Assembly (NCBI GenBank): GCA_041487555.1
Contig: JBGPNL010000001.1
Span: 1-25,714 of the forward strand
DNA length: 25,714 nucleotides
Source of the DNA: Minisyncoccia bacterium
GTDB taxonomy: Bacteria > Patescibacteriota > Minisyncoccia > UBA6257 > 2-01-FULL-56-20
Direction of reading: 5' to 3'
Each line of letters starts with the position of its first letter. Position 1 is the stretch's first letter. A program made the translations under genes and the position numbers. Below the pieces are notes generated by a model. The model was not told the DNA's origin. It did not search any database and was given only the letters and a program-made list of their open reading frames with translations. Of the stretch, positions 3,212-25,165 are shown in pieces.

Positions 3212-3282
3212 GGTTTTTCGCCCGCGGAACTACGCGGACTTAATACGCGCGGAATAACGCGGAAGGAAAATCCGGGCATTTT

Positions 3283-3364
3283 GTCATCCTCCGGTTTAGC
3301 CGGAGGACCCCACGCTTTATAAAAGCGCTTTAGAAGCATGGATCCCCGCCTTCGCGGGGACGAC
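3283..3364. repeat. BIME-like pair of inverted REP-like palindromes
   Basis: GTCATCCTCCGGTTTAGCCGGAGGACC (3283-3309) and GGATCCCCGCCTTCGCGGGGACGAC (3340-3364) in opposite orientation, 30 nt apart. Confidence 0.75.
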
Positions 3365-3384
3365 CGCGCTAAGCGTGGTCGAAT

Positions 3385-3417
3385 AAAAAACCCGTGCGCT
3401 TATGAGGCGGCGGGTTT
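3385..3417 (-). terminator. Intrinsic terminator (minus strand)
   Basis: AAACCCG...CGGGTTT stem with a plus-strand A run, just downstream of the 3438-3785 gene. Confidence 0.55.
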
Positions 3418-3437
3418 GGGTCGGGGTGGATAAATAA

Positions 3438-3785
3438 TCATCGTGGCGTATGAGGGGTGCTGCACACATAGGGTGAGTTCGGGTTGCTCGAAGCCGGGAA
3501 AGAAGGACCGCATGAATATCCTTCGCGGAATCCGTCCTCGTACCAGCCGCGGAGGGAAATCGGAACCGTCTTTGGTATTGGAACCGAAGTGAGTTCCTCG
3601 TTGAAGGCTTGCTTCATGCCAGCATGGTAACCAGCATCATAGATCGCGCCCCAAGCGAAGAAAGAAATAACTCCGAGTATCAGACAAGAAAAAACCAATG
3701 TAGCGAGAATGCGCCCCAGCATTGAAAACCATCCTTTTCCGGAAGAAGCTGCCGGTAATTTAGCACGTCTAAAAATTTTTGTCAA
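3438..3785 (-). CDS. Small single-TM hypothetical protein
   Basis: 115-aa ORF (TTG start; alternative ATG at 3722); one long hydrophobic helix; YDAGYHAG and YEDGFREGY motifs; followed by a terminator. Confidence 0.6.
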   Translation of the reverse strand: MTKIFRRAKLPAASSGKGWFSMLGRILATLVFSCLILGVISFFAWGAIYDAGYHAGMKQAFNEELTSVPIPKTVPISLRGWYEDGFREGYSCGPSFPASSNPNSPYVCSTPHTPR

Positions 3786-3807
3786 ATTGAAAACCTACCG
3801 AAGGTCT

Positions 3808-3833
3808 GGATCCCGGGTCAAGGCCGGGACGAC
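3808..3833. repeat. REP-like palindrome copy
   Basis: GGATCCCGGGTCAAGGCCGGGACGAC. Confidence 0.8.
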
Positions 3834-3926
3834 GAATAATTGTAAATCCCTCGTTTTTGCGCTATTCTATTCATAACTTGATAGCCCAATAGCGCGCAGA
3901 TGGCGCGTTTGGCTCTTTAGTATTTC

Positions 3927-3962
3927 GCTAACGAGCTAACGAGCTAACGAGCTAACGAGCTA
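3927..3962 (+). repeat. Tandem 8-mer (GCTAACGA)x4.5 running into the rodA start codon
   Basis: Direct count: four full units (3927-3958) plus GCTA, whose last A is the A of ATG. Confidence 0.9.
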
Positions 3963-5005
3963 TGTTATCTTTATTTCTTCCCGTCGGAATATTAATCGCC
4001 GCCTCCCTTATTACTCTCTCGAGTATTGCGACGAGTTTATTTTTACTTCAGCTTTTGTGGGTTTTCCTGGGCATCGGTATTCTCGCCCTCTTTTTCTTTT
4101 TCGACTGGCGATTTATTTTAAACTATCGTTGGGTGATCTGGGGGTTATACGCGTTCGTTATTATTCTCCTCATAATTACTTTTATCAAAGCGCCGACGAT
4201 CAGGAATACAAAGAGCTGGCTCGTGTTCGGCTCTATAAATATCCAGCCGGTCGAGCTCGCGAAGATCGCGCTTATTCTGCTCTATGCGAATTATTTCAGC
4301 CGCAGGCATTTGAGCATTGCGCGCTGGAGAAATATTTTAACCTCGTTCCTTTTTTTCGCGATTCCCGCAGGGCTCGTTGCGCTTCAGCCCGATCTTGGTT
4401 CGGCACTTATTCTTTTCGGAATTTGGTTCGGGTTTTTACTCGTCTCCGGGCTTCCGCTGCGGATGGTGGCTGTGACGCTTATCGTGCTTTTGTTTGCCGC
4501 GATATTCATGTGGTTCCACTTCTTAAAGACCTATCAGCGCGAGCGCATCATCGGGGTTTTTTATCCGGAAACGAACGCCCTAAGTATTAATTATAATGTG
4601 GCGCAATCGAAGATCGCGATCGGTTCCGCCGGGTTCTGGGGGAAGGGATATGGCCAGGGATCGCAGATGCAATTGGGTTTTTTGCCCGAACCGTCGAGCG
4701 ATTTCATCCTCGCGGCGCTCATTGAAGAATGGGGGATGGTCGGCGGGCTTGCGGTCATCGCAAGCTTGCTCTTCCTCATCTATCAAATACTCAAAATCGG
4801 TGCCGGAGCAGCGTATAATTTCGAAAAATTCATCTGCCTTGGCACGGTCATGGTTTTTGGGTTACAATTCCTTTTAAACGGCGGCTCCGAGGTCGGGCTT
4901 CTTCCCGTGATCGGGGTAACATTCCCGTTCCTAAGCTACGGCGGGTCGAGCCTTCTCGCTAATTTCTTTCTTCTCTCGATCGTGAATGCCATACGGCGCC
5001 GTTAG
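3962..5005 (+). CDS. rodA: SEDS-family peptidoglycan glycosyltransferase RodA/FtsW
   Basis: Multi-TM 347 aa; SWLVFGSINIQPVELAKI, LQPDLGSA, QSKIAIGSAGFWGKG, LPEPSSDFI and PFLSYGGSS motifs. RodA versus FtsW is not decisive from sequence alone. Confidence 0.85.
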   Translation: MLSLFLPVGILIAASLITLSSIATSLFLLQLLWVFLGIGILALFFFFDWRFILNYRWVIWGLYAFVIILLIITFIKAPTIRNTKSWLVFGSINIQPVELAKIALILLYANYFSRRHLSIARWRNILTSFLFFAIPAGLVALQPDLGSALILFGIWFGFLLVSGLPLRMVAVTLIVLLFAAIFMWFHFLKTYQRERIIGVFYPETNALSINYNVAQSKIAIGSAGFWGKGYGQGSQMQLGFLPEPSSDFILAALIEEWGMVGGLAVIASLLFLIYQILKIGAGAAYNFEKFICLGTVMVFGLQFLLNGGSEVGLLPVIGVTFPFLSYGGSSLLANFFLLSIVNAIRRR

Positions 5006-5038
5006 ACTTATTACGATAAATTGAGCATATAAAAGACC

Positions 5039-6055
5039 ATGCCGGATTTGATCAAAAAATTTTTTGCTTGGATTGACCCGAGCGAGTCGCAAAAAAGGCT
5101 GAAAATCATTTTTATCACGCTCATTATGATCGCGTTCATCCTTGTCTTCGTCCAGGACCTGAAACCGGTCGATGCGCAAGGGGCGGTGCAACAGTTCGCC
5201 AGCTTTGAAATAAAACCGGGAGACGGATTCCGGATGATTGCCGATGCGCTGCAAAAAGCGAATTTGATCCGTTCGCGCTTTGCATTCGAGATGCTCGCAT
5301 TCGGAAGCGGCGTCGCTTCAAAGTTAAAGCCGGGTTTGTATCAGCTGAGCCCGGAGATGTCCTCGGCCGATATAGTGAGCGAATTGGTATCGGGAACGCA
5401 TCATGAAGTTACGGTAACTATTCCCGAAGGCGCATCGGTGTACGACGTTGACAGGATTCTCGCGGATGCGAATGTTATTCCGCCAGGAAGTTTGGTCGCG
5501 ATCAATGCGAGAATGGGAATGGAAGGGACGCTTTTTCCCGATACATACAAATTTTTCACGAGTGGCAGCGTGTTTGATGCGCTTAGAAAGATCGAAGAAA
5601 ATTTTAAAGCAAAAGCCGCTCCATTGCTTGAAGCGGATAAAAAGAATTGGGCGAACAACCTCATCGTCGCGTCGCTCGTGGAAAAAGAAGTTCCGGATCT
5701 CGAAGATCAGAAAATTGTTGCCGGGATCATCAAAAAGAGGATCGAGGCGCACATGCCGCTCCAGATCGACGCCACGGTATGCTATGCGAAGGAGGCGGCG
5801 AGCTATCCTCAGGTCAAAACGTGCTATCCTTTGGCCCCCCTTGACTTTAAAATTGACTCCGATTATAATACTTACTTACATGGTAGTTGGCCGCCGGGAC
5901 CCATTGGAAATCCAGGGATTTCGGCCCTAAACGCGGCTTTACACCCCAAAAGTTCGTCGTATTGGTTTTATCTTTCTGACCCAAAGACGCGTAAGACCAT
6001 ATTTTCGCGAACCCTTGACGAACAAGAACAAAATCGTGTTAAATACTTAAGATAA
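5039..6055 (+). CDS. mltG: Endolytic transglycosylase MltG (YceG family)
   Basis: N-terminal TM; LKPGLY, VTIPEG, EGTLFPDTY, IVASLVEKE, LQIDAT, YNTY..PPGPIGNPG..ALNAALHP motifs. Confidence 0.92.
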   Translation: MPDLIKKFFAWIDPSESQKRLKIIFITLIMIAFILVFVQDLKPVDAQGAVQQFASFEIKPGDGFRMIADALQKANLIRSRFAFEMLAFGSGVASKLKPGLYQLSPEMSSADIVSELVSGTHHEVTVTIPEGASVYDVDRILADANVIPPGSLVAINARMGMEGTLFPDTYKFFTSGSVFDALRKIEENFKAKAAPLLEADKKNWANNLIVASLVEKEVPDLEDQKIVAGIIKKRIEAHMPLQIDATVCYAKEAASYPQVKTCYPLAPLDFKIDSDYNTYLHGSWPPGPIGNPGISALNAALHPKSSSYWFYLSDPKTRKTIFSRTLDEQEQNRVKYLR

Positions 6056-6067
6056 AGCAAATAAAAA

Positions 6068-6106
6068 AGAAAGCCTCTTTGATCCAGAAGAGGACTTTCT
6101 GTTTTT
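6068..6106 (+). terminator. Intrinsic terminator after mltG
   Basis: AGAAAG-CCTCTT...AAGAGG-A-CTTTCT stem followed by GTTTTT. Confidence 0.6.
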
Positions 6107-6207
6107 GTCGTTCGGAGGGATGTTTTCATGCGTGATGCGGGTTCGTGCGAAAAAAAGTGAGTTGTAAGTTTTGTGCGCAGGTTTTAAAAAAACTATAAAA
6201 TTTTTCC

Positions 6208-12948
<6,741 letters not shown>

Positions 12949-12972
12949 TTCGAGTAGACTAACTTGAAACCA

Positions 12973-13407
12973 ATGAACCAAGAAGAATTAAAGGATAAAA
13001 AGCGGTACGAAGTCGCTGTGCTTTTAAAGGCGGAAGAATTCGCACCGGAGGTGGCGAAATTTCTCGAACAGCACGAGGTGGAGATCCGCGAAGCGGGCCC
13101 CTTGAAGAAGATAAACCTTGGCTACCCGATCAAAAAAACCACACAGGCCTACTTCGGATATTTCCACGTCTTGGCGTTGCCCTCATCAATCGCAGCTCTC
13201 GACAAAGATTTCAAAACCCAGCAATCGGTGTTGCGGTCGCTAATTGTGAATGTGCCGAAACAGAAACCCGGCACCTCCGAGGGCTCGCGCGAGCGAAGGC
13301 CGTTCATGAGGAAGCCGATGTCCGTTCCTATGGGTGAAATAAAGCCGCCCAGAAAGCCGTTAAGCAACGAAGCTATTGAGAAGAAGATCGAAGAAATTCT
13401 GCAATAG
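12973..13407 (+). CDS. rpsF: 30S ribosomal protein S6 with C-terminal extension
   Basis: YEVAVLL..KKINLGYPIKK..AYF..SVLRSLIV S6 pattern; precedes ssb. Start may be TTG 12964 or ATG 12973. Confidence 0.88.
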   Translation: MNQEELKDKKRYEVAVLLKAEEFAPEVAKFLEQHEVEIREAGPLKKINLGYPIKKTTQAYFGYFHVLALPSSIAALDKDFKTQQSVLRSLIVNVPKQKPGTSEGSRERRPFMRKPMSVPMGEIKPPRKPLSNEAIEKKIEEILQ

Positions 13408-13457
13408 CGACATGTAAAATGTAAACTGCGACATGGAGTAAAAACTCTGCCTTCTCC

Positions 13458-13486
13458 TTGTCGCATGCCGCATCTTCCATTACACT
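13458..13486 (+). promoter_or_regulatory. Putative sigma70 promoter for leaderless ssb
   Basis: TTGTCG-N17-TACACT, then 7 nt to ATG 13494. Confidence 0.6.
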
Positions 13487-13493
13487 AATTTAT

Positions 13494-14003
13494 ATGAATT
13501 TAAACAAAGTCCTTATTATCGGCCGCGTCACTGCCGATCCGCAATTGCGGAACACCCCGGGCGGAGCAGCCGTTTCTTCTTTTGGCGTGGCGACAAATCG
13601 CACCTGGATGGACAAGAATGGTGCGAAACAGGAAGAAGTAGAATTTCATAACGTGGTGGTTTGGGGCAGGAGCGCCGAGGTGGCGGCCCAATATTTAACA
13701 AAGGGTGCCATGGTACTCATCGAGGGAAGGCTGCAGACGCGCAGCTGGACCGACAAGCAGGGAGGAGCGAGAAAATCGACCGAGATCATCTGTGAGAGGC
13801 TTCAGCTCGGTCCGCGCGCGCAGGGAACCGGTCCACGCCAGGGCGGCGCTCCGGCGGGTTCGACAGGCTCACCGCAAGCAGGCCCGGGCTTTAGCGGAGG
13901 CAAGAAGAACGTTTCCGCGCATAAGGAAGCGGCAGCGGAGGAGCTCCCGACCATCAATGTCGATGAAAGCGAAGAGATTAAACCAGAAGACCTTCCCTTT
14001 TAA
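13494..14003 (+). CDS. ssb: Single-stranded DNA-binding protein
   Basis: MNLNKVLIIGRVTADP, FHNVVVWG, VLIEGRLQTRSW, and acidic DLPF C-terminus. ATG 13494 preferred over the track's 13458 start. Confidence 0.95.
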   Translation: MNLNKVLIIGRVTADPQLRNTPGGAAVSSFGVATNRTWMDKNGAKQEEVEFHNVVVWGRSAEVAAQYLTKGAMVLIEGRLQTRSWTDKQGGARKSTEIICERLQLGPRAQGTGPRQGGAPAGSTGSPQAGPGFSGGKKNVSAHKEAAAEELPTINVDESEEIKPEDLPF

Positions 14004-14113
14004 AATTAAAAGTGAAAGGTTAAATGTAAAAAATGGGGAAACCTAAATACGTTATTGACTTTAAAACCTTTTACCTTTTACCTTTTACCTTTAACATTTA
14101 AACTTTAACTTTC
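14001..14113. repeat. Heptamer tandem repeats between ssb and rplK
   Basis: (ACCTTTT)x~4 at 14066-14092 plus degenerate units; degenerate complementary 7-mers (AAAGGTT, AAATGTA) at 14001-14035. Confidence 0.7.
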
Positions 14114-14118
14114 TTACT

Positions 14119-14544
14119 ATGGCAAAGAAAATAAAAACAGTCATTAAAATTCAGATCCAGGCCGGGAAGGCGACTCCCGCGCCACCGATCGGTACGGCTT
14201 TGGGTCCTCAGGGTATCAATATTCAGGACTTCTGTAAGAAGTTCAATGATGCGACGAAAGACATGACGGGCGATGTCGTTCCCGCGGAAATCACGATCTT
14301 TGAAGACCGCAGCTTCACTTTTATTTTAAAGACTCCGCCCGCTTCGGCGCTCTTGAAGAAAGCCGCAGGTATTGAGAAGGGTGCCGCAAATCCACTGACT
14401 GCGAAAGCAGGCAAGGTTTCACGTGCCGATATCCGCAAGATTGCCGAAAGAAAAATGGCGGATCTGAATACCGATAACATCGAAGCCGCCATGCGGACCA
14501 TCGAGGGCACGGCGAAAAACATGGGCATCGAAGTCAAAGACTAG
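14119..14544 (+). CDS. rplK: 50S ribosomal protein L11
   Basis: [34 protein letters not shown]...[10 protein letters not shown]; 141 aa. Confidence 0.97.
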
Positions 14545-14750
14545 ATGCCCATGTTTTTGGGAAGGGGTCGGGAAACGGGAGTTTTCCGTATAGGAAAGTA
14601 TTGAAAACCGAGAGGTTTTCAAGGAGCGAGTTGTGCTGTTCCCGCAGCTCTTGGAGCAAAGCGACTTAGAGATGCGCAATCCCAAGCGTAGCGGGGATAT
14701 AGCGACTCGCGACGAATGATGGGAATAGAAATCAGGGATTAGTTCTACTC

Positions 14751-14778
14751 GTTGTCATCCCGGCGAAGGCCGGGATCC
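14751..14778. repeat. REP-like palindrome copy (inverted)
   Basis: Its reverse complement GGATCCCGGCCTTCGCCGGGATGACAAC matches 1681-1708 at 27/28 nt. Confidence 0.85.
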
Positions 14779-14836
14779 ATGCTTTATAATTTGAATCTTA
14801 TGAGCGTATCGTTGTGAGCGACATTTTTGTTATATA

Positions 14837-15529
14837 ATGAGTGGGATGCAGAAAGGCAAATTCATCGTTATTGAAGGCACGGACGGTTCGGGTAAAACCG
14901 AGCAATTTAATCGTCTGCTCTTGCGGCTCCCGCAGGGAATGAAATTTTCGGTGCTCGATTTCCCACGCTACGAAGAGGGTTCTTCGTATTTCGTCAAAAA
15001 ATATCTCAATGGCGTGTATGGGACGCTCGAGGAAGTCGGGCCGAAGCAAGCCTCGCTTTTTTATGCGCTCGACCGGTTTGACGCGAGTTTTGAACTGCGA
15101 AAGTGGCTTGAAGAAGGGAAGTGCGTGGTTGCGAACCGCTATGTCGGTTCGAACATGGGCCATCAAGGAGCGAAAATAACGGACGAGAAAGAGCGCAAAA
15201 AACTTTTTGAATGGCTCTATGAACTTGAATATGGAACCTTGGGAATTCCGCGCCCGGACCTGAACATCATCCTCCATGTGCCTGCCGAGATCACGCAAGC
15301 CCTTGTCGACAAGAAAGGCAGCCGTGAATACGTGGGCGGAGCGAAGCGGGATTTGCACGAGGCGAACCTTGATCACCTCAAGAAAGCCGAACACGCATAT
15401 CTTGAGATGGCGGAGCTGTATCCAAAAGAATTCGTGCTTATCGAATGCGCCCCGAACGGGAAATTGCTTTCGATTGAAGAAATTCACGAAAAAGTGTGGG
15501 CGGTGGCAAAGCGGGTGATTGGCGCGTAA
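14837..15529 (+). CDS. tmk: Thymidylate kinase
   Basis: KGKFIVIEGTDGSGKT P-loop, FPRY, LFYALDR, NRY..SN, PDLNIIL. True start may be ATG 14846, 7 nt after TATAAT. Confidence 0.92.
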   Translation: MSGMQKGKFIVIEGTDGSGKTEQFNRLLLRLPQGMKFSVLDFPRYEEGSSYFVKKYLNGVYGTLEEVGPKQASLFYALDRFDASFELRKWLEEGKCVVANRYVGSNMGHQGAKITDEKERKKLFEWLYELEYGTLGIPRPDLNIILHVPAEITQALVDKKGSREYVGGAKRDLHEANLDHLKKAEHAYLEMAELYPKEFVLIECAPNGKLLSIEEIHEKVWAVAKRVIGA

Positions 15530-15569
15530 ACGCTTTGCTTAACCTGCTGTTTTTGTTATTCTTGAAATT

Positions 15570-16025
15570 ATGAAAGAACGATTTGAGCGACGGCCCGAGC
15601 CGCCGTCCGAAGATGAAAAAGGTGATACAAAAAAGACAAGCCGCCGTGATTTCTTGAAGAGCATCGGGAAAGTCGCCCTTGCGGTCGGTTCTGCGGCATA
15701 CGGGGTAGATCGTCTCGTGGAGAGCGCGCAAGAACACAATAAAAAAGAAAAGGAAAACAAGGAACACGAACAAATTGGAGAGGGCACTATACTTGAGAAA
15801 CGTGAGGATCCCATATCCTTCCCCGACTCCCTTTTAAGATTTCAGGTTCATGTTAAGTTCGAAGACAAAGACGGATGGGCCAATTTAACCAAAGGAGAAT
15901 TTAATAGTTGCGATGTTGGCGGAAAAATTCCCGTCGTATATGACGACCGAAACAAAAATATTTTGAAGCTAAAGACTGAGCTATACGGATACGAGCCCTT
16001 CGTTGGAGAGAAGCGCAAAGATTAG
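15570..16025 (+). CDS. Hypothetical protein with twin-arginine-like motif and hydrophobic segment
   Basis: SRRDFLKSIGKVALAVGSAAYG; preceded by TTGCTT-N16-TATTCT and 7 nt to ATG. Confidence 0.7.
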   Translation: MKERFERRPEPPSEDEKGDTKKTSRRDFLKSIGKVALAVGSAAYGVDRLVESAQEHNKKEKENKEHEQIGEGTILEKREDPISFPDSLLRFQVHVKFEDKDGWANLTKGEFNSCDVGGKIPVVYDDRNKNILKLKTELYGYEPFVGEKRKD

Positions 16026-16055
16026 GGTACGGCATTGTCCATAAGGTACTCAAAA

Positions 16056-16246
16056 GTTAAGTCCAGGCTTCTTCAAAACGATAAATTGTCGCCAAATGTC
16101 CAGCGAGCCGTTTTGGAGAACTGGGCATTTAACATACTTAGCACTAACGGAGATTTTCTCTTCCCGAGGGTTTCGCGGAGCCGCGAAAGCGGCGAGCGTA
16201 AGGGCGCTTCGAGTACGAAGCGACCCGTCCCTCGGAAAAGAAAATC
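16056..16246. repeat. Two long imperfect hairpins between convergent genes
   Basis: TTCTTCAAAACG / CGTTTTGGAGAA stem (outer span 16056-16133); GATTTTCTCTTCCCGAGGG / CCCTCGGAAAAGAAAATC (16152-16246) enclosing TTTCGCGG-AG-CCGCGAAA and GCTTCG..CGAAGC hairpins. Confidence 0.65.
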
Positions 16247-16250
16247 GTAG

Positions 16251-17540
16251 CTATTTCGCTTTCATAACGAGATCAAAGACCTGCTGCGCGATTTTGGGGG
16301 AACTTAGCGTTTTTCTGTATCTCTCGAGCGTACAAATACGGAGAGCCAGATACGATTGCGCAATCTCCTGCATATTCTTAAAGTGCGCGGGATACCGGTC
16401 TTTAAGCGATGCCGACTTTCCGTTTTCTTCGTAGATCTTGATATCCTTCGCCTCGAAGCGGTGGGGGTTGAATATCGGGACGAGGAGGATCGAGTTTTGA
16501 GGGATCCCGGCGATGGCGGCAATCTCATTTTCGAGACCCTCAAGCCCCGCTTGGTTTTTCTGTTCAAGCGATGCCGAGCGCATGATCCGCATCATTTCCT
16601 CGTTATTCACGCCGAAAGTTTTCGTCGATTTTTCGCTCGTCGATTCGGGATGGACGAATTGTTTCGGCCGGATGATGATGGTTTCGCGGAAAAGTTCGCG
16701 GTTCCTCAGTAATGTATACAATTCTTGCACGGTTTCATCCTTCGAGAAGCGGAGGCTGCCGAGCAGTTCCGAGTCGGTAAGGTTCGGAAGATCGTTGACT
16801 GTAATATCGTGGGCGTCAATGAGATGGTGGACGGTTTTTTGGAGCATTCGCTGAGCGATTGCCGATGCCTTGCGCAGATACACATTCTTATACATTTTCA
16901 TATAAAAATTTTGCGCTTCGATTGCATTGTCGACGACCTTCTCGTCGATGGCGAGTTCGCCGTTCACGAAATAAATATGCTTGCGCAGATAATCGACGCC
17001 GGCGGGGCGGGAGAGAATGGTCACGAGGCCGTCGCGCTCGAGATAGTCAAGTTTTTCCATGCCGAGGTTCTTGTCGTGTACGGCGAGGTAGAGCGGATTC
17101 TCGTGCGTCGCGAGTTTTAAAAGCAGGGGATAGTCGATCCCGCACGCTTCGATTTCTTTTCTCAGCCTTTTGATAATTTCAAGGCTCGATTCGTCGTTGT
17201 CTTTCCCGCAAAGGTCTTCGGTCACGTGCGAGAAGGCGGGGTGCCCGATGTCGTGGTAAAGGGCGTAGCCTGCGAGGGCGTCCGCTTCGCGCTCGGTAAT
17301 GAGACCGAATTCCACCCAGCGGTCGGCGAGCATTCTCGTTGCGTGATAGGCTCCGAGCGAGTGCGCTTTGCGCGTGTGCGTGGCCGAAGGAAAGGTGAGG
17401 TACGACATGCCAAGCTGGCGCTTGTCGCCCAGCGCCTGGAATTCTTTCGTCTCGACCATCGGCAAAACCGGCCGCACGTCAATGATGCCGTAGACCGGAT
17501 CGGCGATTACTTTCGGCGCGCTTATTTTTTTTCTGACCAT
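16251..17540 (-). CDS. HD-domain phosphohydrolase (SAMHD1/YwfO-like dNTP triphosphohydrolase family)
   Basis: DPVYGII, RQLGMSYLTFPSATHTRKAHSLG, LYHDIGHPAFSH and LDYLERD motifs. Confidence 0.88.
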   Translation of the reverse strand: MVRKKISAPKVIADPVYGIIDVRPVLPMVETKEFQALGDKRQLGMSYLTFPSATHTRKAHSLGAYHATRMLADRWVEFGLITEREADALAGYALYHDIGHPAFSHVTEDLCGKDNDESSLEIIKRLRKEIEACGIDYPLLLKLATHENPLYLAVHDKNLGMEKLDYLERDGLVTILSRPAGVDYLRKHIYFVNGELAIDEKVVDNAIEAQNFYMKMYKNVYLRKASAIAQRMLQKTVHHLIDAHDITVNDLPNLTDSELLGSLRFSKDETVQELYTLLRNRELFRETIIIRPKQFVHPESTSEKSTKTFGVNNEEMMRIMRSASLEQKNQAGLEGLENEIAAIAGIPQNSILLVPIFNPHRFEAKDIKIYEENGKSASLKDRYPAHFKNMQEIAQSYLALRICTLERYRKTLSSPKIAQQVFDLVMKAK

Positions 17541-17648
17541 AATACTATTGATTTTACTTTAGAACGATGGATGAAAATAAGCAATTTGATTGCAATCCGC
17601 GTCAAAATTCGTTACACTTTGTTTAGTTTTCCATTCGGAGAGAATACG

Positions 17649-18089
17649 ATGGATAAAGGGAAAAGTGTCGGTGCGATCATTACCGATCCCGCAGGGCGAT
17701 ATCTCATGCAATACCGACTGAAGCACCCGATCGGGCTTGCGATGCCTGCCGGGCACATGGACGCGAATGACGAATCTCCCGAAGACGCCATGCAGCGCGT
17801 GTTCGAAGAAACCGGGCTTTACGTTCGGCAGATGACGCGGGTGTTCTACGGTTTTGTTCCCGGCGACCGCGCTTGTAAGGAAGGGCATAAGGGGCATGAC
17901 TGGTGGATTTATCATCTTCTTACGGAAGGTGAGCCGCGGATCAAGGAGCCCCATAAGCACCTCTTCCTGAGATTCATGAGCTCAAAGGAAATCCGTGAAT
18001 GGGCGATAGGGAACAAGACCCATCCGAATTCGTTTCCCTGCGACCCGAATTGGTTCAAATATATTCTTCCGGCCCTCAATATTTTGTGA
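17649..18089 (+). CDS. Nudix hydrolase
   Basis: SVGAII..YLMQYR..PAGH..ESPEDAMQRVFEETGL Nudix-like box; GGAG upstream of ATG 17649. The track's 17226 start overlaps the HD gene. Confidence 0.8.
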   Translation: MDKGKSVGAIITDPAGRYLMQYRLKHPIGLAMPAGHMDANDESPEDAMQRVFEETGLYVRQMTRVFYGFVPGDRACKEGHKGHDWWIYHLLTEGEPRIKEPHKHLFLRFMSSKEIREWAIGNKTHPNSFPCDPNWFKYILPALNIL

Positions 18090-19789: not shown

Positions 19790-20005
19790 TTATTGCCCAC
19801 CTTTTCCGGTGTGCTTTTTGATGCGGATCTTTTTGCTTCCGCGGCGGTTGCGCCTTTCTTCGATCTTGCGCAGGAGATCTTTGCGCTTCTTCGTTGTTTC
19901 TTCGGTTTGCTTGTCGGGCGGTTTCTTATCGGGCGCCGCCGGTTTTTCCGGCTCTTGTTTCGGAGGCGGAGCGGGCTCTTTTTTCGGTGTTTGTTCTGCG
20001 TGCAT
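19790..20005 (-). CDS. pup: Pup-like protein modifier (71 aa, C-terminal GKGGQ)
   Basis: MHAEQT start, TEET..DLL and terminal KGGQ parallel actinobacterial Pup (MAQEQT, TEETDDLL, QKGGQ); GAGGTG SD; lies 16 nt downstream of a PafA-like gene. Confidence 0.8.
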   Translation of the reverse strand: MHAEQTPKKEPAPPPKQEPEKPAAPDKKPPDKQTEETTKKRKDLLRKIEERRNRRGSKKIRIKKHTGKGGQ

Positions 20006-20021: not shown

Positions 20022-21590
20022 CTAGAGAAGACCTAATCTCTTTATAGCAGCCTTGCTTTTCTCGTCAAGCTGCGAGAGATCGTTCGCGCATGGATCGGGA
20101 AGGCTTATGCATCGCCAATCCGCCTCCGACGCCGATTCGCGGGCCTTCGCGGTGAACTTGATCGTCCGCCAGGCCGTCGCATCGAAATCGTATCCGAGCT
20201 CGCTCAACCTCTCGACGATCTTCGTGCGCAATGCGGCCCGCGTCCGCGGGGGAGTGGTGAGCGCTCTGCGTATCTCCGCGTCCGTTGTCAGCCGCTCAAA
20301 ACTTTCGAGCAGGCCATAGTAGGTGCTTTCACGGAAATCGATATCGTGGAACTGGAAATTGGTTTCATGGATTTTCGCGTCGGAGAGCGACGATATTCCC
20401 TGGGAATCCATTTGCTCTTCGATGAGCCATTCAAGCGTCGGCCAGTCCAGGATGCCGATAAGTTCGCGGGGGTCCCGCTCAAGAAGCGTGAGAGCCCGTT
20501 TCCACTCCGCAAGCAGCTGGGCGTGCTCCCAGAGCTCGTTCTGTTCGACATATTTTCGGCACATTTCGTAATAGCGCCAGAGGATATCCCTGACCGTACA
20601 TCGTACGCCGGTCACAAGCTTTATTTTGATGGTTCCCTCTTTGTTCATCGCGAGTTTCTTTATGAGCGTTATAAAGCCGTCGTTCTGATCGAGAAGATCG
20701 GCCGCAAGCGTGGGATCGAAGTCGTTCGACTCAAGCAGTTCGAGTACGAGCGAGCTCACGCCTACGGTGAGCCAGAGGCTTTTCTCAAGCATATGGCTGT
20801 CGCCGCAGATCACGTGCAGCCTGCTGTACACGCTTTTTGATTCGTCCTCGACAGAATCATCCACCCGCAAATTAATGAGGGAGCGTTGGTCTCTCCTTGT
20901 CGTCCCATCCGCGTGGAGGCCGCCGATGTTCATAAATCGGGGAGAAACGGCGAAAAGGAAATCGGGCTCACCCGAAGCGGCTTGCTGGGGAACTATTCCG
21001 CCGGATCCGGCGAAAAGATATCGTGCGGCGAGGAATAGCGCCCATGACTGCGCCTTTATGTGCATGGGTTTCTTATCCTCTTTGTATCTCAGCTGGTCGA
21101 ACAAGCTCCGGGTGATCCTGTAATTTTCGTGGAATGCCCTGGTTGAGAGAAAATCCGGCATGCTCATATGCGGCTGTCCCGTTATCTGGTTGCTCGGCAT
21201 GATGCTTGTATTTTTTTTGAAGATCTTTATCCCCGGAAGGCCCTTCACCTTAGATAGTTTGTTCCAGGCATCAAGGACGTCGTTCAAAAGAAGATCGATC
21301 GCTTTATCATAGGCGACGATCTCGATGGGATCGGTGCATTCCGGCGTGCATATTTCGAGGAGCGTGCCCATGTCCCGGTACGCCATGCCGCCGTTCCGGA
21401 GTATCAATCTGCCGCCGTTTCCCAGGTTTTTCCTGCTGTCCGGGGTCATGGAGAGGTCGCTCACGATATCGAGAAGCGTGTGGAAACAGATATGATTTGC
21501 CGACCCATTCGGGGAAGCGTCGATCGGATCGCCGTCATGATCGTAAAAGAGAACATCCAATTCGTGTTCTATGCCCATTATGCGCGGCAT
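20022..21590 (-). CDS. pafA: Pup ligase PafA-like (carboxylate-amine ligase fold)
   Basis: MPRIMGIEHE, LRNGGMAYRDMG, TPEC, FHENY, TTR..RSLINLR, RLHVICGDS, LDW, FHDI, PPRTRAALR. ATG 21590 chosen because GAGGAG lies just upstream (track start 21659). Ligase versus Dop identity inferred from the DMG motif and shorter N-terminal loop. Confidence 0.8.
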   Translation of the reverse strand: MPRIMGIEHELDVLFYDHDGDPIDASPNGSANHICFHTLLDIVSDLSMTPDSRKNLGNGGRLILRNGGMAYRDMGTLLEICTPECTDPIEIVAYDKAIDLLLNDVLDAWNKLSKVKGLPGIKIFKKNTSIMPSNQITGQPHMSMPDFLSTRAFHENYRITRSLFDQLRYKEDKKPMHIKAQSWALFLAARYLFAGSGGIVPQQAASGEPDFLFAVSPRFMNIGGLHADGTTRRDQRSLINLRVDDSVEDESKSVYSRLHVICGDSHMLEKSLWLTVGVSSLVLELLESNDFDPTLAADLLDQNDGFITLIKKLAMNKEGTIKIKLVTGVRCTVRDILWRYYEMCRKYVEQNELWEHAQLLAEWKRALTLLERDPRELIGILDWPTLEWLIEEQMDSQGISSLSDAKIHETNFQFHDIDFRESTYYGLLESFERLTTDAEIRRALTTPPRTRAALRTKIVERLSELGYDFDATAWRTIKFTAKARESASEADWRCISLPDPCANDLSQLDEKSKAAIKRLGLL

Positions 21591-21623
21591 GTGTCTCCTC
21601 TCGTGTGTAAAAATTCTGTCCTT

Positions 21624-21652
21624 AGTGTAGAACCTATCCAAAAAGTAGTCCA
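21624..21652 (-). promoter_or_regulatory. Putative sigma70 promoter for pafA-pup
   Basis: TGGACT-N17-TACACT on the minus strand, 33 nt upstream of ATG 21590. Confidence 0.45.
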
Positions 21653-21693
21653 TATGCATACTTTTGAGACGGGCTTCGGGCCATTGTTCCCGG

Positions 21694-21724
21694 AAAAGAA
21701 AAGAGGCACCTAAGAAGGTGCCTC
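21694..21724 (-). terminator. Intrinsic terminator overlapping the dop stop codon
   Basis: Minus strand GAGGCACC-TTCTTA-GGTGCCTC followed by TTTTCTTTT. Confidence 0.7.
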
Positions 21725-23338
21725 GGTGTTCAGGGCTTTGATCAATTCATAGAGGCTGTCGCTCGTTTCGACAAGATCCCCGATCATTCGCTTGCTGCCG
21801 AACCAGGGGTCGTAGTCCAGTATGTACGCATTGGAAGAGAGATGATCTCTTGCAGCCAGTTTTCCGGGGCCGGTGTAATAGAGCGTGCCCCAGGAAAGAG
21901 AGAGTATTTCGTCAGGAAATTTTTTTGCTATTTCCCCGCCGAAATAGGCGCGTGAATCGGTCGGCGGATGCGTCATTGCGTGTTCTATCTCCGCTTCCGT
22001 GACGATGCCGAGGGGCGTGCCCACGCCCGCGATCGGGCCGTCCGGAAATCCGTTCTTTTCGAGGTCGAAATAGGTGCCCTCGTCCGGGTTCATGTTGTGG
22101 TACTCGAGCGATTCCAGGTGGATGTCGCTTTTTGAAGCACCGGATTCCTTCACGAGTTCGAGGTATTCTTTTTTTATCGCGAAATCGAGATAGAATTTCA
22201 GGCGGCCGGGATCGGAATCAAAAAGGTCGAGGATAAAACCGAGTTTTTCGACGGCGTCGCGGAATGTTTCATTTCCCGTGTCATCGACGTATTGTTTCAT
22301 CGAAGAGAAGAATGCCCGTTGTATCTCGAGGGCGGAAACATCCCGTTCTCCGGCAAGTTCGATCACCCGTTCTTTTCCGGTGAGATCCCGCGAGATGGCG
22401 TGGAACGCCTTTATCGGATCACAGAGGGATAGGGACGGAAGCGGGTAATTTTCCGCGAGCATCTTGAGGAATAGCGCGGTTATTCCGTAGGACAGATATA
22501 TCGACCACGGAGCGATGAGCGCGTCGCCGCAGATCACGTGCAGTCTTCGGTATTTTTCCCTGTCGGCATAGGGGCGGTCGCGGGTATTGATCAACGCGCG
22601 ATAGCCCGTTGTTTCGAGGCCGCGCAGTTCGCTTATGAAATCGGCTCTTTGAAAGAGCTGGTACGAGCAGGGGTTGATGCCGCACTCGGACCCGACCTTG
22701 CCGCTCCCGCCGTAGATCCTGCTTACGAGAAATGCGAGCCAAGTTGCGGTTCTCTCCGAACTTCCGTACTCACCGGTGAGTTCTGTGAAAAGATCGGGGG
22801 GCAGGAGGTAGTTCTCGTGGCATGCCCAGCTCGGATGCTCGAGCGGCCCCGCGCCCCTGTACGCCCATCTTTTCGCCTTGATCCCGGATGAATTATTTTT
22901 GCATACCAGGATCGGGTCGTTCTCAAGGCCCAGTTTTTTCGTCGCTTCCCGCCGCATGATCTCGATGATCCGTTCGCTCGCTTTTTGCTGAAGCAGCAGT
23001 TCCTTCGGATGAGTGCATTCGGCGGTAGAGATCTCCGGGTGAAGCATGTCGACATATATGCGCATGCGATTGGGAAGCCTGTGGCCGGTGAATCCGCCGC
23101 AGCGCCTTTCCTCGATCTGCCGTTCATGAAGATCGATCGCGGTATCGATGTTTTTTTCTCCGCGGAATCTATGCGGGTCGAATTCTTCGGAATCTCTTGC
23201 TCCGTTGGATCTCCCGGCGGCGGCGACCATCGCGTACGGCACTTCGAGCTGCATAAATCGATCGCTGTAGTACAAGCTGTTCGTGTGGTATTCATTCTCG
23301 ATGCCGAAAAGCATTCGCCAACTTTTATTGTCGGGCAT
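21710..23338 (-). CDS. dop: Pup deamidase/depupylase Dop-like
   Basis: FGIENEY, long N-terminal loop, IYVDMLHPEISTAEC, KNN, CHENYL, GSGKVG, QRADF..GLETT..LINTRDRPYADREKYRRLHVICGD, YHNM; GGAG SD. Confidence 0.85.
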   Translation of the reverse strand: MPDNKSWRMLFGIENEYHTNSLYYSDRFMQLEVPYAMVAAAGRSNGARDSEEFDPHRFRGEKNIDTAIDLHERQIEERRCGGFTGHRLPNRMRIYVDMLHPEISTAECTHPKELLLQQKASERIIEIMRREATKKLGLENDPILVCKNNSSGIKAKRWAYRGAGPLEHPSWACHENYLLPPDLFTELTGEYGSSERTATWLAFLVSRIYGGSGKVGSECGINPCSYQLFQRADFISELRGLETTGYRALINTRDRPYADREKYRRLHVICGDALIAPWSIYLSYGITALFLKMLAENYPLPSLSLCDPIKAFHAISRDLTGKERVIELAGERDVSALEIQRAFFSSMKQYVDDTGNETFRDAVEKLGFILDLFDSDPGRLKFYLDFAIKKEYLELVKESGASKSDIHLESLEYHNMNPDEGTYFDLEKNGFPDGPIAGVGTPLGIVTEAEIEHAMTHPPTDSRAYFGGEIAKKFPDEILSLSWGTLYYTGPGKLAARDHLSSNAYILDYDPWFGSKRMIGDLVETSDSLYELIKALNTEAPS

Positions 23339-23385
23339 TTATTTCTCCGTATGGGTCAAAAGGCTCCTAGTACTATATAACGGCA

Positions 23386-23445
23386 AACCCTCCTTCGCCA
23401 ACCGCTCCGCTAAAGCCTCGCGGCTCAAGAAGGCTAAGGAGGGTT
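23386..23445. repeat. Nested palindromic element between arc and dop
   Basis: 10-bp terminal inverted repeats AACCCTCCTT / AAGGAGGGTT enclosing CCGC..GCTAAAGC..GCGG. Confidence 0.65.
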
Positions 23446-23455
23446 ATTTTTTCAG

Positions 23456-23489
23456 AAAAATAAAAAGAGGGTCCGTATGAACCCTCTTT
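23456..23489 (-). terminator. Intrinsic terminator after arc
   Basis: AAAGAGGGT-N8-ACCCTCTTT stem with minus-strand U runs. Confidence 0.7.
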
Positions 23490-23494: not shown

Positions 23495-25165
23495 TTAGCT
23501 GAAGCCGATCTTCGGCCTCGTCTCTTTCGAGAGGTAGTTGATATCGTACTCTCCCTCGATGCCTTCGGTCGAAAGCATATCCGCAAGTACCTTTTCATTC
23601 GTGGGCAGCTGTTCGTTCTCGTGGATTTTTTCCCGGAGCGCGTTCATGAGGTCTTCGGGCTTAAGCCCTTTTTCCTCTTTGTTGCCGTCTCCGATCCAGC
23701 GATTATAGGCGAAGAGCCGCGCGCGCTCGGCAAGGCCGGCGAGCAAGGCTCCCGAAACGAAGAGGTCTTTGAAGCCGAGTATCCTCGACTTTCCCAATTG
23801 CCGTACCTCGATGAGCTGGTTCGCGTCCGTTTTCGGATCGAACATTGTTTCAACGCAAGGCAGAATGAGGCCCTCGCGGATCGCTTCCGCGGCGGTCTGT
23901 CCCGTGCGGGTAAAGCAGCTCGGATGGAGCGGCAGGGTCGCGGGAAGGTTCAACTCGAGGATCTGGGTCGCGCCTTCTTTCCCGGGGCGGGGAATGCGCT
24001 TCTTGAAGTAGAAGCGGCCGTCCCGGATTACCGCCGGATCGATGAGGTCGTCGCGATTTTCGGCGGCGATCAGGAGTATTCTCCGCTTTTCGAGGTGAAA
24101 TCCGCCGACAAGCGAATTCCACTGAGCGACGTGCGTATTGATCCATGGTGCGTTGTCGCTCATTCCCCGGTGGGGGAACATGGCGCCGAATTCGTCCCAA
24201 AGGATGACCAGCAGGTCGCATTCGGGTCCCGACTCGAGGATGAGATGGCGCAGGGCCGCCTCGGTATTTCCCAGCCATTTGTCGAGTAGTTCCGAACCGC
24301 GTACGAGGATGAAGCCAACCTTATATTCCTCGCCGAATCGTTCGTGGCATTTTTCGCGGAGTTCGCTTGCGATGCATTCCGCAAGCAGGGTCTTGCCGCA
24401 TCCCGGGGGGCCGACGAGCCGGCCGCAGACGATGAATGAATCTTCGGTCGCGACCTTAAGGAGGAATTCCTTCGCTCCCACGGGGTCGAGCAGGGGATTG
24501 ATCGCTTCTTCGCGAAGCTCTTTGATCTCCTTTTCGAGGCCGCGCACCATCGCGAATGTCTTTTTCGGATCGTAGGTGTCGAGCTCTTTTCCGGATGTTT
24601 TAATGCCGATCTTTTTTACCGCTATGCCGCCGCGCACAAGGAGATGATTACCTTGCTTCAACTCGGCGACGACAAGCCCTTCCGCCGGCAGGACCATTTG
24701 CAGTTCGCCCCGGCAGTTCTTCACTGCGAGCAAATTCCCGTGGAGCGAATCGAACGGCAAAAGCTCGCCCAGCTCCGCCAGATCGGCGCTTGCGTGAACG
24801 ACAACCTTGCCCGAAGCGATCCACAGCGTCTGTCCGCTCTTGAGGGAGTCGAGGTCGATATCTGTTCCGTCAAAGTGGGATTTCGCAAGCACATATACAA
24901 GATTCGCACTGCCGCCTTCGATCTCGATGACCCTCTTTTCTTTGTGGATGATCTTTACAAAGTAAGCGAAAGACCACGGAGCTGCCGCGATCTCGTCAAG
25001 TTGTTGGGAGGCTTCTTGAAGCCTGTCCGCAAGTTCGTCGATGATCTTTTCCTGCTCTTCCAGTTTTTTTTCGTTTTCTTTATTCGCTGTGCCGAGCAGC
25101 TTGAGCTGCATCCGCAAGGCCGCGATCTTCTGTTCCAGTTCCGGTCGATCGTTCGGAGGAGCCAT
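23495..25165 (-). CDS. arc: ARC/Mpa-family proteasome-associated AAA+ ATPase
   Basis: N-terminal coiled coil ending AAAPWSF, interdomain region, Walker A GPPGCGKT, pore loop GSELLDKWLGNTE, Walker B ILWDE, SRH AENRDDLIDPAVIRDGR, VSGALL and ENEQLP (Mpa ENEDLP); GAGGTG SD. Confidence 0.88.
   Translation of the reverse strand: MAPPNDRPELEQKIAALRMQLKLLGTANKENEKKLEEQEKIIDELADRLQEASQQLDEIAAAPWSFAYFVKIIHKEKRVIEIEGGSANLVYVLAKSHFDGTDIDLDSLKSGQTLWIASGKVVVHASADLAELGELLPFDSLHGNLLAVKNCRGELQMVLPAEGLVVAELKQGNHLLVRGGIAVKKIGIKTSGKELDTYDPKKTFAMVRGLEKEIKELREEAINPLLDPVGAKEFLLKVATEDSFIVCGRLVGPPGCGKTLLAECIASELREKCHERFGEEYKVGFILVRGSELLDKWLGNTEAALRHLILESGPECDLLVILWDEFGAMFPHRGMSDNAPWINTHVAQWNSLVGGFHLEKRRILLIAAENRDDLIDPAVIRDGRFYFKKRIPRPGKEGATQILELNLPATLPLHPSCFTRTGQTAAEAIREGLILPCVETMFDPKTDANQLIEVRQLGKSRILGFKDLFVSGALLAGLAERARLFAYNRWIGDGNKEEKGLKPEDLMNALREKIHENEQLPTNEKVLADMLSTEGIEGEYDINYLSKETRPKIGFS

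What the first reader, a model, noticed from the sequence alone, without database searches (positions are those of the whole stretch)
23495..23530. ARC ATPase ends in KIGFS instead of the HbYX proteasome-gating motif
Mycobacterial Mpa ends GQYL, which docks into the 20S alpha ring. This protein ends ETRPKIGFS. IGF is the tripeptide ClpX/ClpA use to dock on ClpP, although there it sits in an internal loop. With no prcBA nearby, the hypothesis is that tagged substrates are fed to ClpP or another peptidase. Terminal IGF-like tails also occur in other AAA+ proteins, so this is unproven.
Basis: partly seen in the sequence, partly recalled or inferred. Interest (0 to 1): 0.75.

Follow-up and report, generated by a model that had tools for sequence, protein, structure and literature searches.

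The report
Pup unfoldase with conserved IGF tail
A tiny-genome (CPR) bacterium has a Pup protein-tagging system without a proteasome, and its unfolding motor carries a short, conserved, flexible tail with the same "IGF" peg that Clp motors use to plug into the ClpP protease. This suggests, but does not show, that tagged proteins are fed to ClpP.

Summary
Observation confirmed. Window 23495-25165 (-) encodes a 556-aa ARC/Mpa-type AAA unfoldase ending SKETRPKIGFS*. It heads an arc, dop-like, pafA-like, pup-like (GGQ end) gene row.

The tail is not chance. All 11 known members of one deep CPR clade (only 28-30% identical between sub-clades) keep [I/L/M]-G-F, with G and F invariant, usually after basic residues. 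The motif sits 0-10 residues from the C-terminus, so it is not an end-anchored HbYX motif. AlphaFold models the tail as disordered.

No 20S gene was found in the four genomes of this clade that could be searched, even with a CPR-specific profile. ClpP is in 58 of 61 relatives. It is missing from this 88%-complete assembly together with its conserved neighbour gene, which is probably an assembly gap.

ClpP docking is the best single mechanism (about 0.35) but is unproven. There is no clpP linkage, and the complex prediction gave no answer. CPR ARCs with GQYL tails also lack 20S. Haloarchaeal Cdc48 proteins end RIGFQ without ClpP. IGF-tailed bacterial Cdc48-like ATPases sit with Hsp70/TPR genes, not clpP.

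This scan has noted IGF-type tails before on other motors in other DNA.

The parts
23495..25165 (-). ARC/Mpa-type AAA unfoldase gene, 556 aa (P0001)
   Evidence: ORF and translation. PF00004 AAA at residues 250-392. TIGR03689 pup_AAA at 194 bits over residues 30-523, below the 504.75 cut-off. AF2 model with pLDDT 88.5. Foldseek best hits are Mpa 7PXC, 7PX9 and 5KZF.
23498..23530 (-). C-terminal tail SKETRPKIGFS (residues 546-556); the Ile-Gly-Phe motif is at 23501-23509
   Evidence: Sequence. Modelled as coil after the last strand (541-544), with pLDDT 75 falling to 48. G554 and F555 are invariant in nine clade members.
24989..25147 (-). N-terminal coiled-coil helix (residues 7-59), the Pup-receptor element in Mpa
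   Evidence: A single long helix at 7-59 in the AF2 model. The role is inferred from Mpa.
24389..24412 (-). Walker A motif GPPGCGKT (residues 252-259). Walker B D324/E325, pore-loop KWLG (G299), sensor N370 and Arg R381/R384 are also intact.
   Evidence: Invariant and near-invariant columns of the 50-sequence ARC alignment A1.
23464..23489 (-). Terminator-like hairpin (11-bp stem plus T-run) directly after the ARC stop codon
   Evidence: Consensus scan. This is a pattern match only.
21710..23338 (-). Dop-like Pup_ligase-family gene, 542 aa
   Evidence: PF03136 at 7.3e-83. Best NCBIfam match is TIGR03688 Dop, below its cut-off.
20022..21659 (-). PafA-like Pup_ligase-family gene, 545 aa
   Evidence: PF03136 at 4.3e-59. 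Best NCBIfam match is TIGR03686 PafA, below its cut-off.
19790..20005 (-). 71-aa Pup-like ORF ending KGGQ, strongly basic
   Evidence: ORF listing. No Pfam hit. Small ORFs of 55-75 aa sit in the same loci in L017, L064, L018, L019 and L028.

Best explanation
The gene encodes a working ARC/Mpa-family hexameric unfoldase. It has a coiled-coil Pup receptor, two OB domains and one classical AAA module. It belongs to a pupylation operon that has lost the 20S proteasome.

Its last roughly 11 residues form a flexible tail carrying a conserved docking peptide: basic residues followed by [I/L/M]-G-F. The most likely single receptor for that peptide is the hydrophobic H-site between adjacent subunits on the apical face of ClpP. 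That is the site used by the IGF, IGL and LGF loops of ClpX, ClpA and ClpC. Pup-tagged proteins would then be unfolded by ARC and threaded into ClpP.

Shown here:
- family membership by sequence and fold;
- intact ATPase motifs;
- conservation and predicted disorder of the tail;
- no 20S found in the four searchable clade genomes;
- ClpP and ClpX-type LGF/MGF loops in the lineage.

Inferred, not shown: that the tail binds anything, and that the partner is ClpP.
For: 1. Motif match. Position 1 is I/L/M, Gly is invariant and Phe is invariant, usually after K/R, in all 11 clade members. The lineage's own ClpX loops read RGLGFV (L017) and GGMGFV (G000). IGF loops dock in ClpP H-sites (PMC9035409).

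2. Motif position. It lies 0-10 residues from the end, so it behaves as an internal-type linear motif. An HbYX motif is anchored by the terminal carboxylate.

3. Tail structure. It follows the last strand of the C-terminal domain and is predicted disordered. It replaces the Mpa tail that reaches the 20S (alignment to Mpa; PMC8223512).

4. No 20S. None was found in G000, G001, G003 or G058 with PF00227 or with a CPR 20S profile. The positive control G723 scored 5.8e-70. All eight IGF-ARC loci (seven from relatives plus the window) contain arc, two Pup-ligase genes and a small pup-like ORF, without prcBA. The locus from the same-genus genome G001 (L056) was checked for ARC, ligase and 20S genes only.

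5. Phylogeny. The sister group of the larger IGF sub-clade still has prcBA in its locus (L032/G723; SH-aLRT 88).

6. Contrast with Actinobacteria. Proteasome-less lineages (Corynebacterium, Galactobacter, Boudabousia) have ARCs that stop right after the last strand, with no conserved tail. Here the tail was kept and re-patterned.

7. ClpP availability. ClpP is in 58 of 61 relatives, including G001, G002, G003 and G058.

8. Parallel case. Archaeal Cdc48 proteins mostly end in HbYX-like tails. A large bacterial Cdc48-like family ends EKP[KR]IGF, and 72 of 106 homologues have the motif.
Against: - No clpP lies within any IGF-ARC locus. Only one locus (L017) has clpX next door.
- clpP was not found in this assembly, although that is probably a gap.
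- The complex prediction gave no answer and is not evidence either way.
- CPR ARCs with conserved G[QH]YL tails (G037, G484, G496, G571, G663, G700, G733, G764, G777) gave no PF00227 hit. Five of them (G037, G484, G496, G700, G733) were also negative with the CPR 20S profile. A conserved tail therefore does not need its textbook protease.
- 18 of 26 ARC-like-bearing genomes in the class sample lack 20S, whatever the tail type.
- Haloarchaeal Cdc48 paralogues end RIGFQ in genomes with 20S and no ClpP.
- The IGF-tailed bacterial Cdc48-like family is linked to Hsp70 and TPR genes, not clpP. No clpP lies within 10 kb of any of 80 Cdc48 loci.
- The linker from the last strand to IGF is only 7-12 residues, about 10 shorter than the Mpa tail. 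Reach to the H-sites could not be checked.
- The clade may have a single origin (AU test p 0.68), so there is no evidence of convergent gain.
Confidence: 0.35

Rival explanations
1. ARC works alone as an unfoldase or disassembly machine, as proposed for Corynebacterium glutamicum. It unfolds pupylated proteins without degrading them, and Dop recycles the tag. In this reading the IGF tail acts within the ARC ring. It could contact a neighbouring subunit, plug or gate the exit of the channel, or tune ATPase activity. It is not a protease-docking peptide.
For: - Proteasome-free pupylation with ARC-driven ferritin disassembly is the published model for C. glutamicum (PMC8223512, citing Kuberl 2016).
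- 20S-less ARC systems are the majority in this CPR class (18 of 26) and include G[QH]YL-tailed and acidic-tailed ARCs. ARC function without a chambered partner therefore seems viable.
- The 12-residue block ending G[QH]YL is conserved in those 20S-less genomes, which suggests tails have roles inside the motor.
- The linker before IGF is short.
Against: - Proteasome-less actinobacterial ARCs simply lose the tail, so a ring-internal role is not general.
- AlphaFold places the tail as low-confidence coil and does not pack it on the monomer.
- An intramolecular role does not explain why the conserved residues match the ClpP-docking tripeptide.
Confidence: 0.22
2. The tail is a docking peptide for a partner that is not a protease. 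Candidates are Dop or PafA of the same operon, a co-chaperone, or a peptide-binding adaptor. C-terminal tails of Cdc48/p97 recruit cofactors in this way.
For: - The IGF-tailed bacterial Cdc48-like family (G and F invariant in alignment A2) lies in a conserved operon with an Hsp70 paralogue and TPR proteins, or with a GrpE-VWA protein. TPR domains are classic binders of C-terminal peptides (general knowledge).
- The only conserved neighbours of IGF-ARC are the two Pup-ligase genes and pup.
Against: - No TPR or Hsp70 gene lies in the ARC loci.
- No interaction between the Mpa C-terminus and Dop or PafA is known to me.
- Nothing tested here points to a particular receptor.
Confidence: 0.18
3. The tail is a variant HbYX-type motif (Gly-Phe-X with a penultimate aromatic residue). 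It would serve a 20S-like or other ring peptidase that is present but undetected, either in the unassembled 12% of the genome or too divergent to recognise.
For: - In this protein and in G001 the Phe is penultimate (IGFS, LGFQ).
- Haloarchaeal Cdc48 paralogues end RIGFQ or SRTFQ in genomes with 20S and without ClpP.
Against: - In 8 of the 11 clade members the Phe is not penultimate: 7 have 2-10 residues after it, and in P0213 the Phe is the last residue.
- No 20S was found in four clade genomes of 75-100% completeness, using two profiles and a positive control.
- No candidate peptidase gene lies in the loci.
Confidence: 0.05

Closest known systems
Mpa/ARC, the proteasome-associated ATPase of Actinobacteria (TIGR03689; PDB 5KZF, 7PXC)
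   Same: The architecture is the same: N-terminal coiled coil, tandem OB domains, one classical AAA module and a C-terminal domain. Mpa is the best fold match. The gene is linked to dop, pafA and pup.
   Different: - It scores far below the equivalog cut-off (194 against 504.75 bits) and is about 27-30% identical.
- It has no GQYL tail.
- Its tail is about 10 residues shorter and carries basic-[ILM]GF instead.
- No 20S was found in the genome.
- The gene order is arc-dop-pafA-pup.
ARC of proteasome-less Actinobacteria (Corynebacterium glutamicum model: ferritin disassembly without degradation)
   Same: It is a pupylation system with ARC but without prcBA (PMC8223512).
   Different: Those ARCs end right after the last strand with no conserved tail motif (P0185, P0204 and P0162). 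The CPR clade keeps a tail under selection.
ClpX, ClpA and ClpC IGF/IGL/LGF loops docking on ClpP H-sites
   Same: The tripeptide pattern is the same, often follows basic residues and sits in a flexible segment on the protease-facing side of a hexameric unfoldase. The lineage's own ClpX has LGF or MGF loops (PMC9035409).
   Different: - The AAA+ clade differs: classical AAA, not Clp/Hsp100.
- The motif is in a C-terminal tail, not an internal loop of the large AAA+ domain.
- The linker is much shorter.
- No binding data exist.
HbYX tails of PAN, Rpt and archaeal Cdc48
   Same: They are C-terminal docking tails of classical-clade AAA unfoldases. In this protein the aromatic residue is penultimate.
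   Different: - The residue is Phe, not Tyr.
- Its distance from the terminus is not conserved in the clade.
- No 20S was found.
Bacterial Cdc48-like double-AAA family ending EKP[KR]IGF (P0202 family; undescribed as far as my paper searches show)
   Same: It has the same basic-IGF C-terminal tail on a classical AAA unfoldase, in bacteria that have ClpP and usually no 20S.
   Different: It has two AAA rings. It is not linked to Pup genes. Its conserved neighbours are Hsp70 and TPR genes.

Membership tests
ARC/Mpa (Pup-system AAA unfoldase) | N-terminal coiled coil followed by tandem OB domains and a single classical AAA module | tested here: met
   AF2 model: helix 7-59, beta domains 64-186, AAA 200-420. 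Foldseek top 30 hits are all Mpa.
ARC/Mpa (Pup-system AAA unfoldase) | Intact ATPase and pore motifs (Walker A and B, pore-1 aromatic-hydrophobic-Gly, sensor 1, Arg fingers) | tested here: met
   GPPGCGKT at 252-259, D324/E325, KWLG with G299, N370, and R381/R384 fall in invariant or near-invariant columns.
ARC/Mpa (Pup-system AAA unfoldase) | Gene linked to dop, pafA and pup | tested here: met
   Two PF03136 genes and a 71-aa ORF ending GGQ lie directly downstream. The same layout occurs in seven related loci. The small ORF was not looked for in L056.
ARC/Mpa (Pup-system AAA unfoldase) | Score above the NCBIfam equivalog cut-off for TIGR03689 | tested here: not met
   194.1 bits against a cut-off of 504.75. 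It is a distant member, not an equivalog.
ARC/Mpa (Pup-system AAA unfoldase) | C-terminal GQYL (HbYX-type) motif and a 20S partner | tested here: not met
   The tail is KIGFS. No PF00227 or CPR-20S profile hit in G000, G001, G003 or G058.
ClpP-partner unfoldases (ClpX, ClpA, ClpC, ClpE) | [I/L/V/M]-G-[F/L] tripeptide in a flexible element facing the protease | tested here: met
   I553-G554-F555 lie in a disordered tail and are conserved in 11 of 11 clade members.
ClpP-partner unfoldases (ClpX, ClpA, ClpC, ClpE) | Clp/Hsp100-type AAA+ module with the motif in an internal loop of the large domain | tested here: not met
   The module is classical AAA (PF00004), not AAA_2 (PF07724), and the motif is C-terminal.
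ClpP-partner unfoldases (ClpX, ClpA, ClpC, ClpE) | ClpP encoded in the same genome | tested here: inconclusive
   Not found in G000, which is 88% complete. Present in 58 of 61 relatives. The gene that flanks clpP in relatives is also missing from G000. A ClpX-like gene with an MGF loop is present.
ClpP-partner unfoldases (ClpX, ClpA, ClpC, ClpE) | Physical binding to and activation of ClpP | not testable with these tools
   The one complex prediction returned 'no answer'. Biochemistry is needed.
HbYX proteasome activators | Penultimate Tyr (aromatic) at a fixed position from the free C-terminus | tested here: not met
   Phe is penultimate here and in G001. In the relatives overall, 0-10 residues follow it.

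The most novel reading that the evidence does not exclude
A hybrid degradation route in which a ubiquitin-like tag (Pup) and its proteasomal-type AAA unfoldase (ARC) have been re-wired onto the bacterial ClpP protease through a C-terminal IGF peg. ARC would be a new, non-Clp/Hsp100 class of ClpP partner that docks by its tail, as proteasomal ATPases do. The same peg on bacterial Cdc48-like ATPases would then make tail-docked ClpP partners a general but unrecognised class.
Probability: 0.3. Interest if true: 0.85.

Novelty: new variant of a known kind. Interest (0 to 1): 0.62.

Why it matters
All known ClpP partners are Clp/Hsp100 ATPases that dock through internal loops. All known Pup-dependent degradation goes through the 20S proteasome. 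An ARC that docks on ClpP would break both rules.

It would show how a tagging system survives loss of its protease by switching partner. It would also give CPR bacteria, whose proteostasis is almost unstudied, a targeted degradation pathway.

The claim is directly testable with three recombinant proteins and a peptide.

Even if ClpP is not the receptor, the clade provides a clean case of a conserved linear motif on a 20S-less ARC. Together with the GQYL-tailed but 20S-less CPR ARCs, it shows that the textbook rule 'ARC tail means 20S docking' does not hold outside Actinobacteria.

Tried and rejected
- **Complex prediction.** Three copies of the ClpP from the same-genus genome G001 plus P0001 residues 520-556 scored 0.00. 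The verdict was 'no answer', so controls were not run. This is not evidence for or against binding. A heptamer could not be submitted because of the chain limit, and no positive control was possible because only one job was allowed.
- **Rosetta-stone fusion.** The 796-aa homologue P0004 has a roughly 230-aa N-terminal extension with no Pfam match, and it is not ClpP.
- **Gene linkage to clpP.** None in any IGF-ARC locus. clpX is adjacent in L017 only.
- **DNA synteny of the clpP region between G001 and G000.** The sequences are too diverged. The protein-level check of the flanking gene did work.
- **Phylum-wide scan with TIGR03689.** FtsH hits swamped it. Only G442, G250 and G394 were ARC-like.
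- **Enlarging the clade.** A profile search found no new members.
- **Convergent origin of the IGF tail.** Not supported. A single clade is not rejected (p-AU 0.68). The AU test on the full 115-row set did not finish.
- **'IGF tail implies ClpP' as a general rule for classical AAA ATPases.** Rejected as a rule, because of the haloarchaeal RIGFQ tails without ClpP and the Hsp70/TPR linkage of the bacterial family.
- **Literature.** Searches for an ARC-ClpP link or tail-docked ClpP partners found nothing relevant.
Full report
**1. What is there**

Window 23495-25165 (-) is a 556-aa ORF (P0001) ending ...INYLSKETRPKIGFS, followed by TAA. It carries a classical AAA domain (PF00004, residues 250-392). 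Its best curated match is the Pup-system ATPase model TIGR03689, covering residues 30-523 at 194 bits, far below the equivalog cut-off of 504.75.

An AlphaFold2 model built on a 50-sequence alignment has mean pLDDT 88.5. It shows:
- one long N-terminal helix (residues 7-59);
- two beta domains (64-186);
- the AAA module (about 200-420);
- a C-terminal domain ending in a strand at 541-544;
- a final stretch of coil whose confidence falls from 75 to 48.

The 30 best solved-structure matches are all M. tuberculosis Mpa (7PXC, 7PX9, 5KZF, 7LJF; E about 1e-34 to 1e-29). Walker A, Walker B, the pore-loop glycine, sensor 1 and the arginines fall in invariant or near-invariant columns.

Downstream on the same strand lie a Dop-like gene and a PafA-like gene (PF03136). 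After them comes a 71-aa ORF ending KGGQ. A terminator-like hairpin follows the ARC stop codon, and promoter-like sites precede arc and dop.

The nearest named homologue is from Candidatus Liptonbacteria. The genome is 0.98 Mb in 138 contigs and 88% complete. The organism is therefore a CPR/Patescibacteria bacterium.

**2. Is the tail more than chance?**

Yes. The tails of the clade members are:

| Source | Tail |
|---|---|
| This window (G000) | PKIGFS |
| P0002 (56% identical) | PKIGFTK |
| G001, same genus | KRLGFQ |
| G003 | KRIGFKPID |
| P0003 | RRIGFFQSKS |
| P0004 | SELGFTSKKQ |
| G058 | LKIGFQPSRTKSPK |
| P0148 | RRIGFSPPAKAKPSQ |
| P0161 | DQIGFVKNKDKK |
| P0213 | KPMGF |

The last four are much more distant ARCs, 28-30% identical to this one.

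In an alignment of nine of these, G554 and F555 are invariant, while the surrounding tail varies in sequence and length. The tripeptide is expected about 0.005 times per tail by composition.

I built a tree without the last 25 residues. It groups these ARCs in two well-supported sub-clades inside one unresolved region. An AU test on a 50-row subset does not reject a single clade (p 0.68). The evidence is therefore long retention after probably one origin, not convergence.

Two other 'LGF' tails look like chance: P0221 (Corynebacterium phoceense) and P0254. They lack the basic context and sit among relatives without the motif.

**3. The proteases**

*20S.* PF00227 finds nothing in G000, G001, G003 or G058. 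I also built a profile from 15 CPR 20S subunits. It finds both subunits in the control genome G723 (5.8e-70 and 2.9e-51) and nothing in those four genomes. All eight IGF-ARC loci contain arc, two Pup-ligase genes and a small pup-like ORF, with no prcBA. The ninth locus, from G001 (L056), has arc and two ligase genes and no 20S; the small ORF was not looked for there.

*ClpP.* PF00574 finds nothing in G000. It finds a gene in 58 of 61 relatives, including G001, G002, G003 and G058. In G001, G002 and G003 clpP lies beside an H+-pyrophosphatase gene, and G000 lacks that gene too. G000 also keeps a ClpX-like gene whose loop reads GGMGFV, plus two long Clp ATPases. The simplest reading is that the clpP region is not assembled.

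**4. Context that cuts both ways**

In a sample of 401 genomes of the class, 26 have an ARC-like gene. Only 8 of those have a 20S. The pattern is not the actinobacterial one:

- ARCs whose loci contain prcBA have tails such as RRVMS, RVYVQ, FNSMA and TEGVV.
- ARCs with canonical G[QH]YL tails (G037, G484, G496, G571, G663, G700, G733, G764, G777) are in genomes with no PF00227 hit. Five of them (G037, G484, G496, G700, G733) were also searched with the CPR 20S profile and gave nothing. G733 is a single contig, 100% complete.
- Other 20S-less ARCs have acidic tails.

Absence of 20S is therefore ordinary for CPR pupylation. A conserved tail can persist without its textbook partner.

In contrast, ARCs of proteasome-less Actinobacteria (Corynebacterium, Galactobacter, Boudabousia) end just after the last strand with no tail motif. 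This fits the published stand-alone unfoldase model for C. glutamicum (PMC8223512).

**5. IGF tails elsewhere**

A large bacterial Cdc48-like family ends EKP[KR]IGF plus 0-8 residues. Its members are about 710 aa and occur in Verrucomicrobiota, Anaerolineae and other phyla. Among 106 homologues, 72 have the motif. Most archaeal Cdc48 proteins in the same searches end in HbYX-like x[YF]x. That domain-level contrast fits a ClpP reading.

Two findings argue against making it a rule:
- Five haloarchaeal Cdc48 paralogues end RIGFQ, in genomes with 3-5 20S genes and no ClpP. Together with SRTFQ tails, they look like an xFQ variant of HbYX.
- The bacterial family sits in a conserved operon with an Hsp70 paralogue and TPR proteins, or with a GrpE-VWA protein. 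None of 80 Cdc48 loci has clpP within 10 kb.

Earlier notes of this scan report IGF-like tails on other motors that have lost their protease: HslU, a Lon motor, and a Cdc48-like gene next to clpP in a Treponema. I treated these as leads only. One related claim was later priced low.

**6. Mechanism**

The best single mechanism is that the tail docks in ClpP H-sites, as ClpX, ClpA and ClpC loops do (PMC9035409), giving a Pup to ARC to ClpP route.

For it:
- the exact residue pattern, including the invariant Gly;
- the disordered, protease-side position of the tail;
- the variable distance to the terminus, which is unlike HbYX;
- loss of 20S, with a 20S-bearing sister group;
- presence of ClpP and LGF/MGF ClpX loops in the lineage.

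Against it:
- no gene linkage to clpP;
- a short linker, 7-12 residues and about 10 shorter than the Mpa tail;
- the counter-examples in sections 4 and 5;
- no binding evidence. The one complex prediction returned 'no answer'.

I put this mechanism at about 0.35. The rivals are a ring-internal regulatory tail on a stand-alone unfoldase (about 0.22), a non-protease partner (about 0.18) and an HbYX-like tail for an undetected ring peptidase (about 0.05). The remainder is unassigned.

**7. Verdict**

This is a new variant of the ARC/Mpa family. It is interesting because a simple experiment would decide whether a proteasomal-type, Pup-reading unfoldase can drive ClpP.

Noticed in passing
Loci L020 (G037), L029 (G700), L031 (G496), L033 (G571), L035 (G663), L038 (G484), L041 (G733), L043 (G777), L045 (G764): CPR ARCs keep a canonical 12-residue tail ending G[QH]YL. 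Their genomes give no PF00227 hit, and the five also searched with the CPR 20S profile (G037, G484, G496, G700, G733) gave nothing. One of these is a single-contig, 100% complete genome. What the GQYL tail does there is unexplained.
   Followed up: partly
Loci L032 (G723), L034 (G790), L037 (G480), L039 (G558), L046 (G628), L047 (G541), L052 (G526), L054 (G043): CPR ARC loci that do contain 20S subunit genes have ARC tails without a penultimate Tyr (RRVMS, FNSMA, FSSKA, GRSAT, DAKVV, TEGVV; RVYVQ is the nearest). The L039 tail was not read because its ARC frame has an internal stop. 20S docking there may use a different tail rule.
   Followed up: no
Loci L026, L145-L148, L027; proteins P0202, P0220, P0301-P0375: A widespread bacterial Cdc48-like double-AAA family lacks the CDC48 N domains. 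It ends in a conserved EKP[KR]IGF tail and sits in an operon with an Hsp70 paralogue and TPR proteins, or with a GrpE-VWA protein. I found no paper on it.
   Followed up: partly
Loci L074, L081, L085, L094, L099 (also L066, L071): Haloarchaeal Cdc48 paralogues end ...RIGFQ or ...SRTFQ. Their genomes have 20S and no ClpP. This looks like an xFQ variant of the HbYX tail.
   Followed up: partly
L025 (G442:C1:80573-82129): A Patescibacteria genome (1.13 Mb, one contig) encodes an actinobacterial-grade ARC: 800 bits to TIGR03689, tail GGLGQYL. No Pup-ligase gene was detected in the fetched 16-kb region. It may have been acquired from an actinobacterial host.
   Followed up: no
L033 (G571) 10666-17666; L041 (G733) 1718-8922: Some CPR pupylation loci carry three or four Pup-ligase-family genes in a row. 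L041 also has a 549-aa ORF between them with no Pfam match.
   Followed up: no
window 23464-23489 (-), 23372-23401 (-), 21703-21724 (-): A terminator-like hairpin lies right after arc, and a promoter-like site lies before dop. arc may be transcribed separately from dop-pafA-pup. A second hairpin overlaps the end of dop.
   Followed up: no
G000 assembly (not in the window); G003:C1:121054-122699: clpP and the adjacent H+-pyrophosphatase gene, which are neighbours in G001, G002 and G003, are both missing from this assembly. An unassembled region is the likely cause.
   Followed up: yes
L064 42-2432 (P0004): One clade member has a roughly 230-residue N-terminal extension with no Pfam match in front of the ARC coiled coil. 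In the same locus the PafA-like gene is called in two pieces.
   Followed up: partly
window 6208-12948 (+): A single 2246-aa ORF lies where rpoB and rpoC would be expected. I only saw the ORF length.
   Followed up: no
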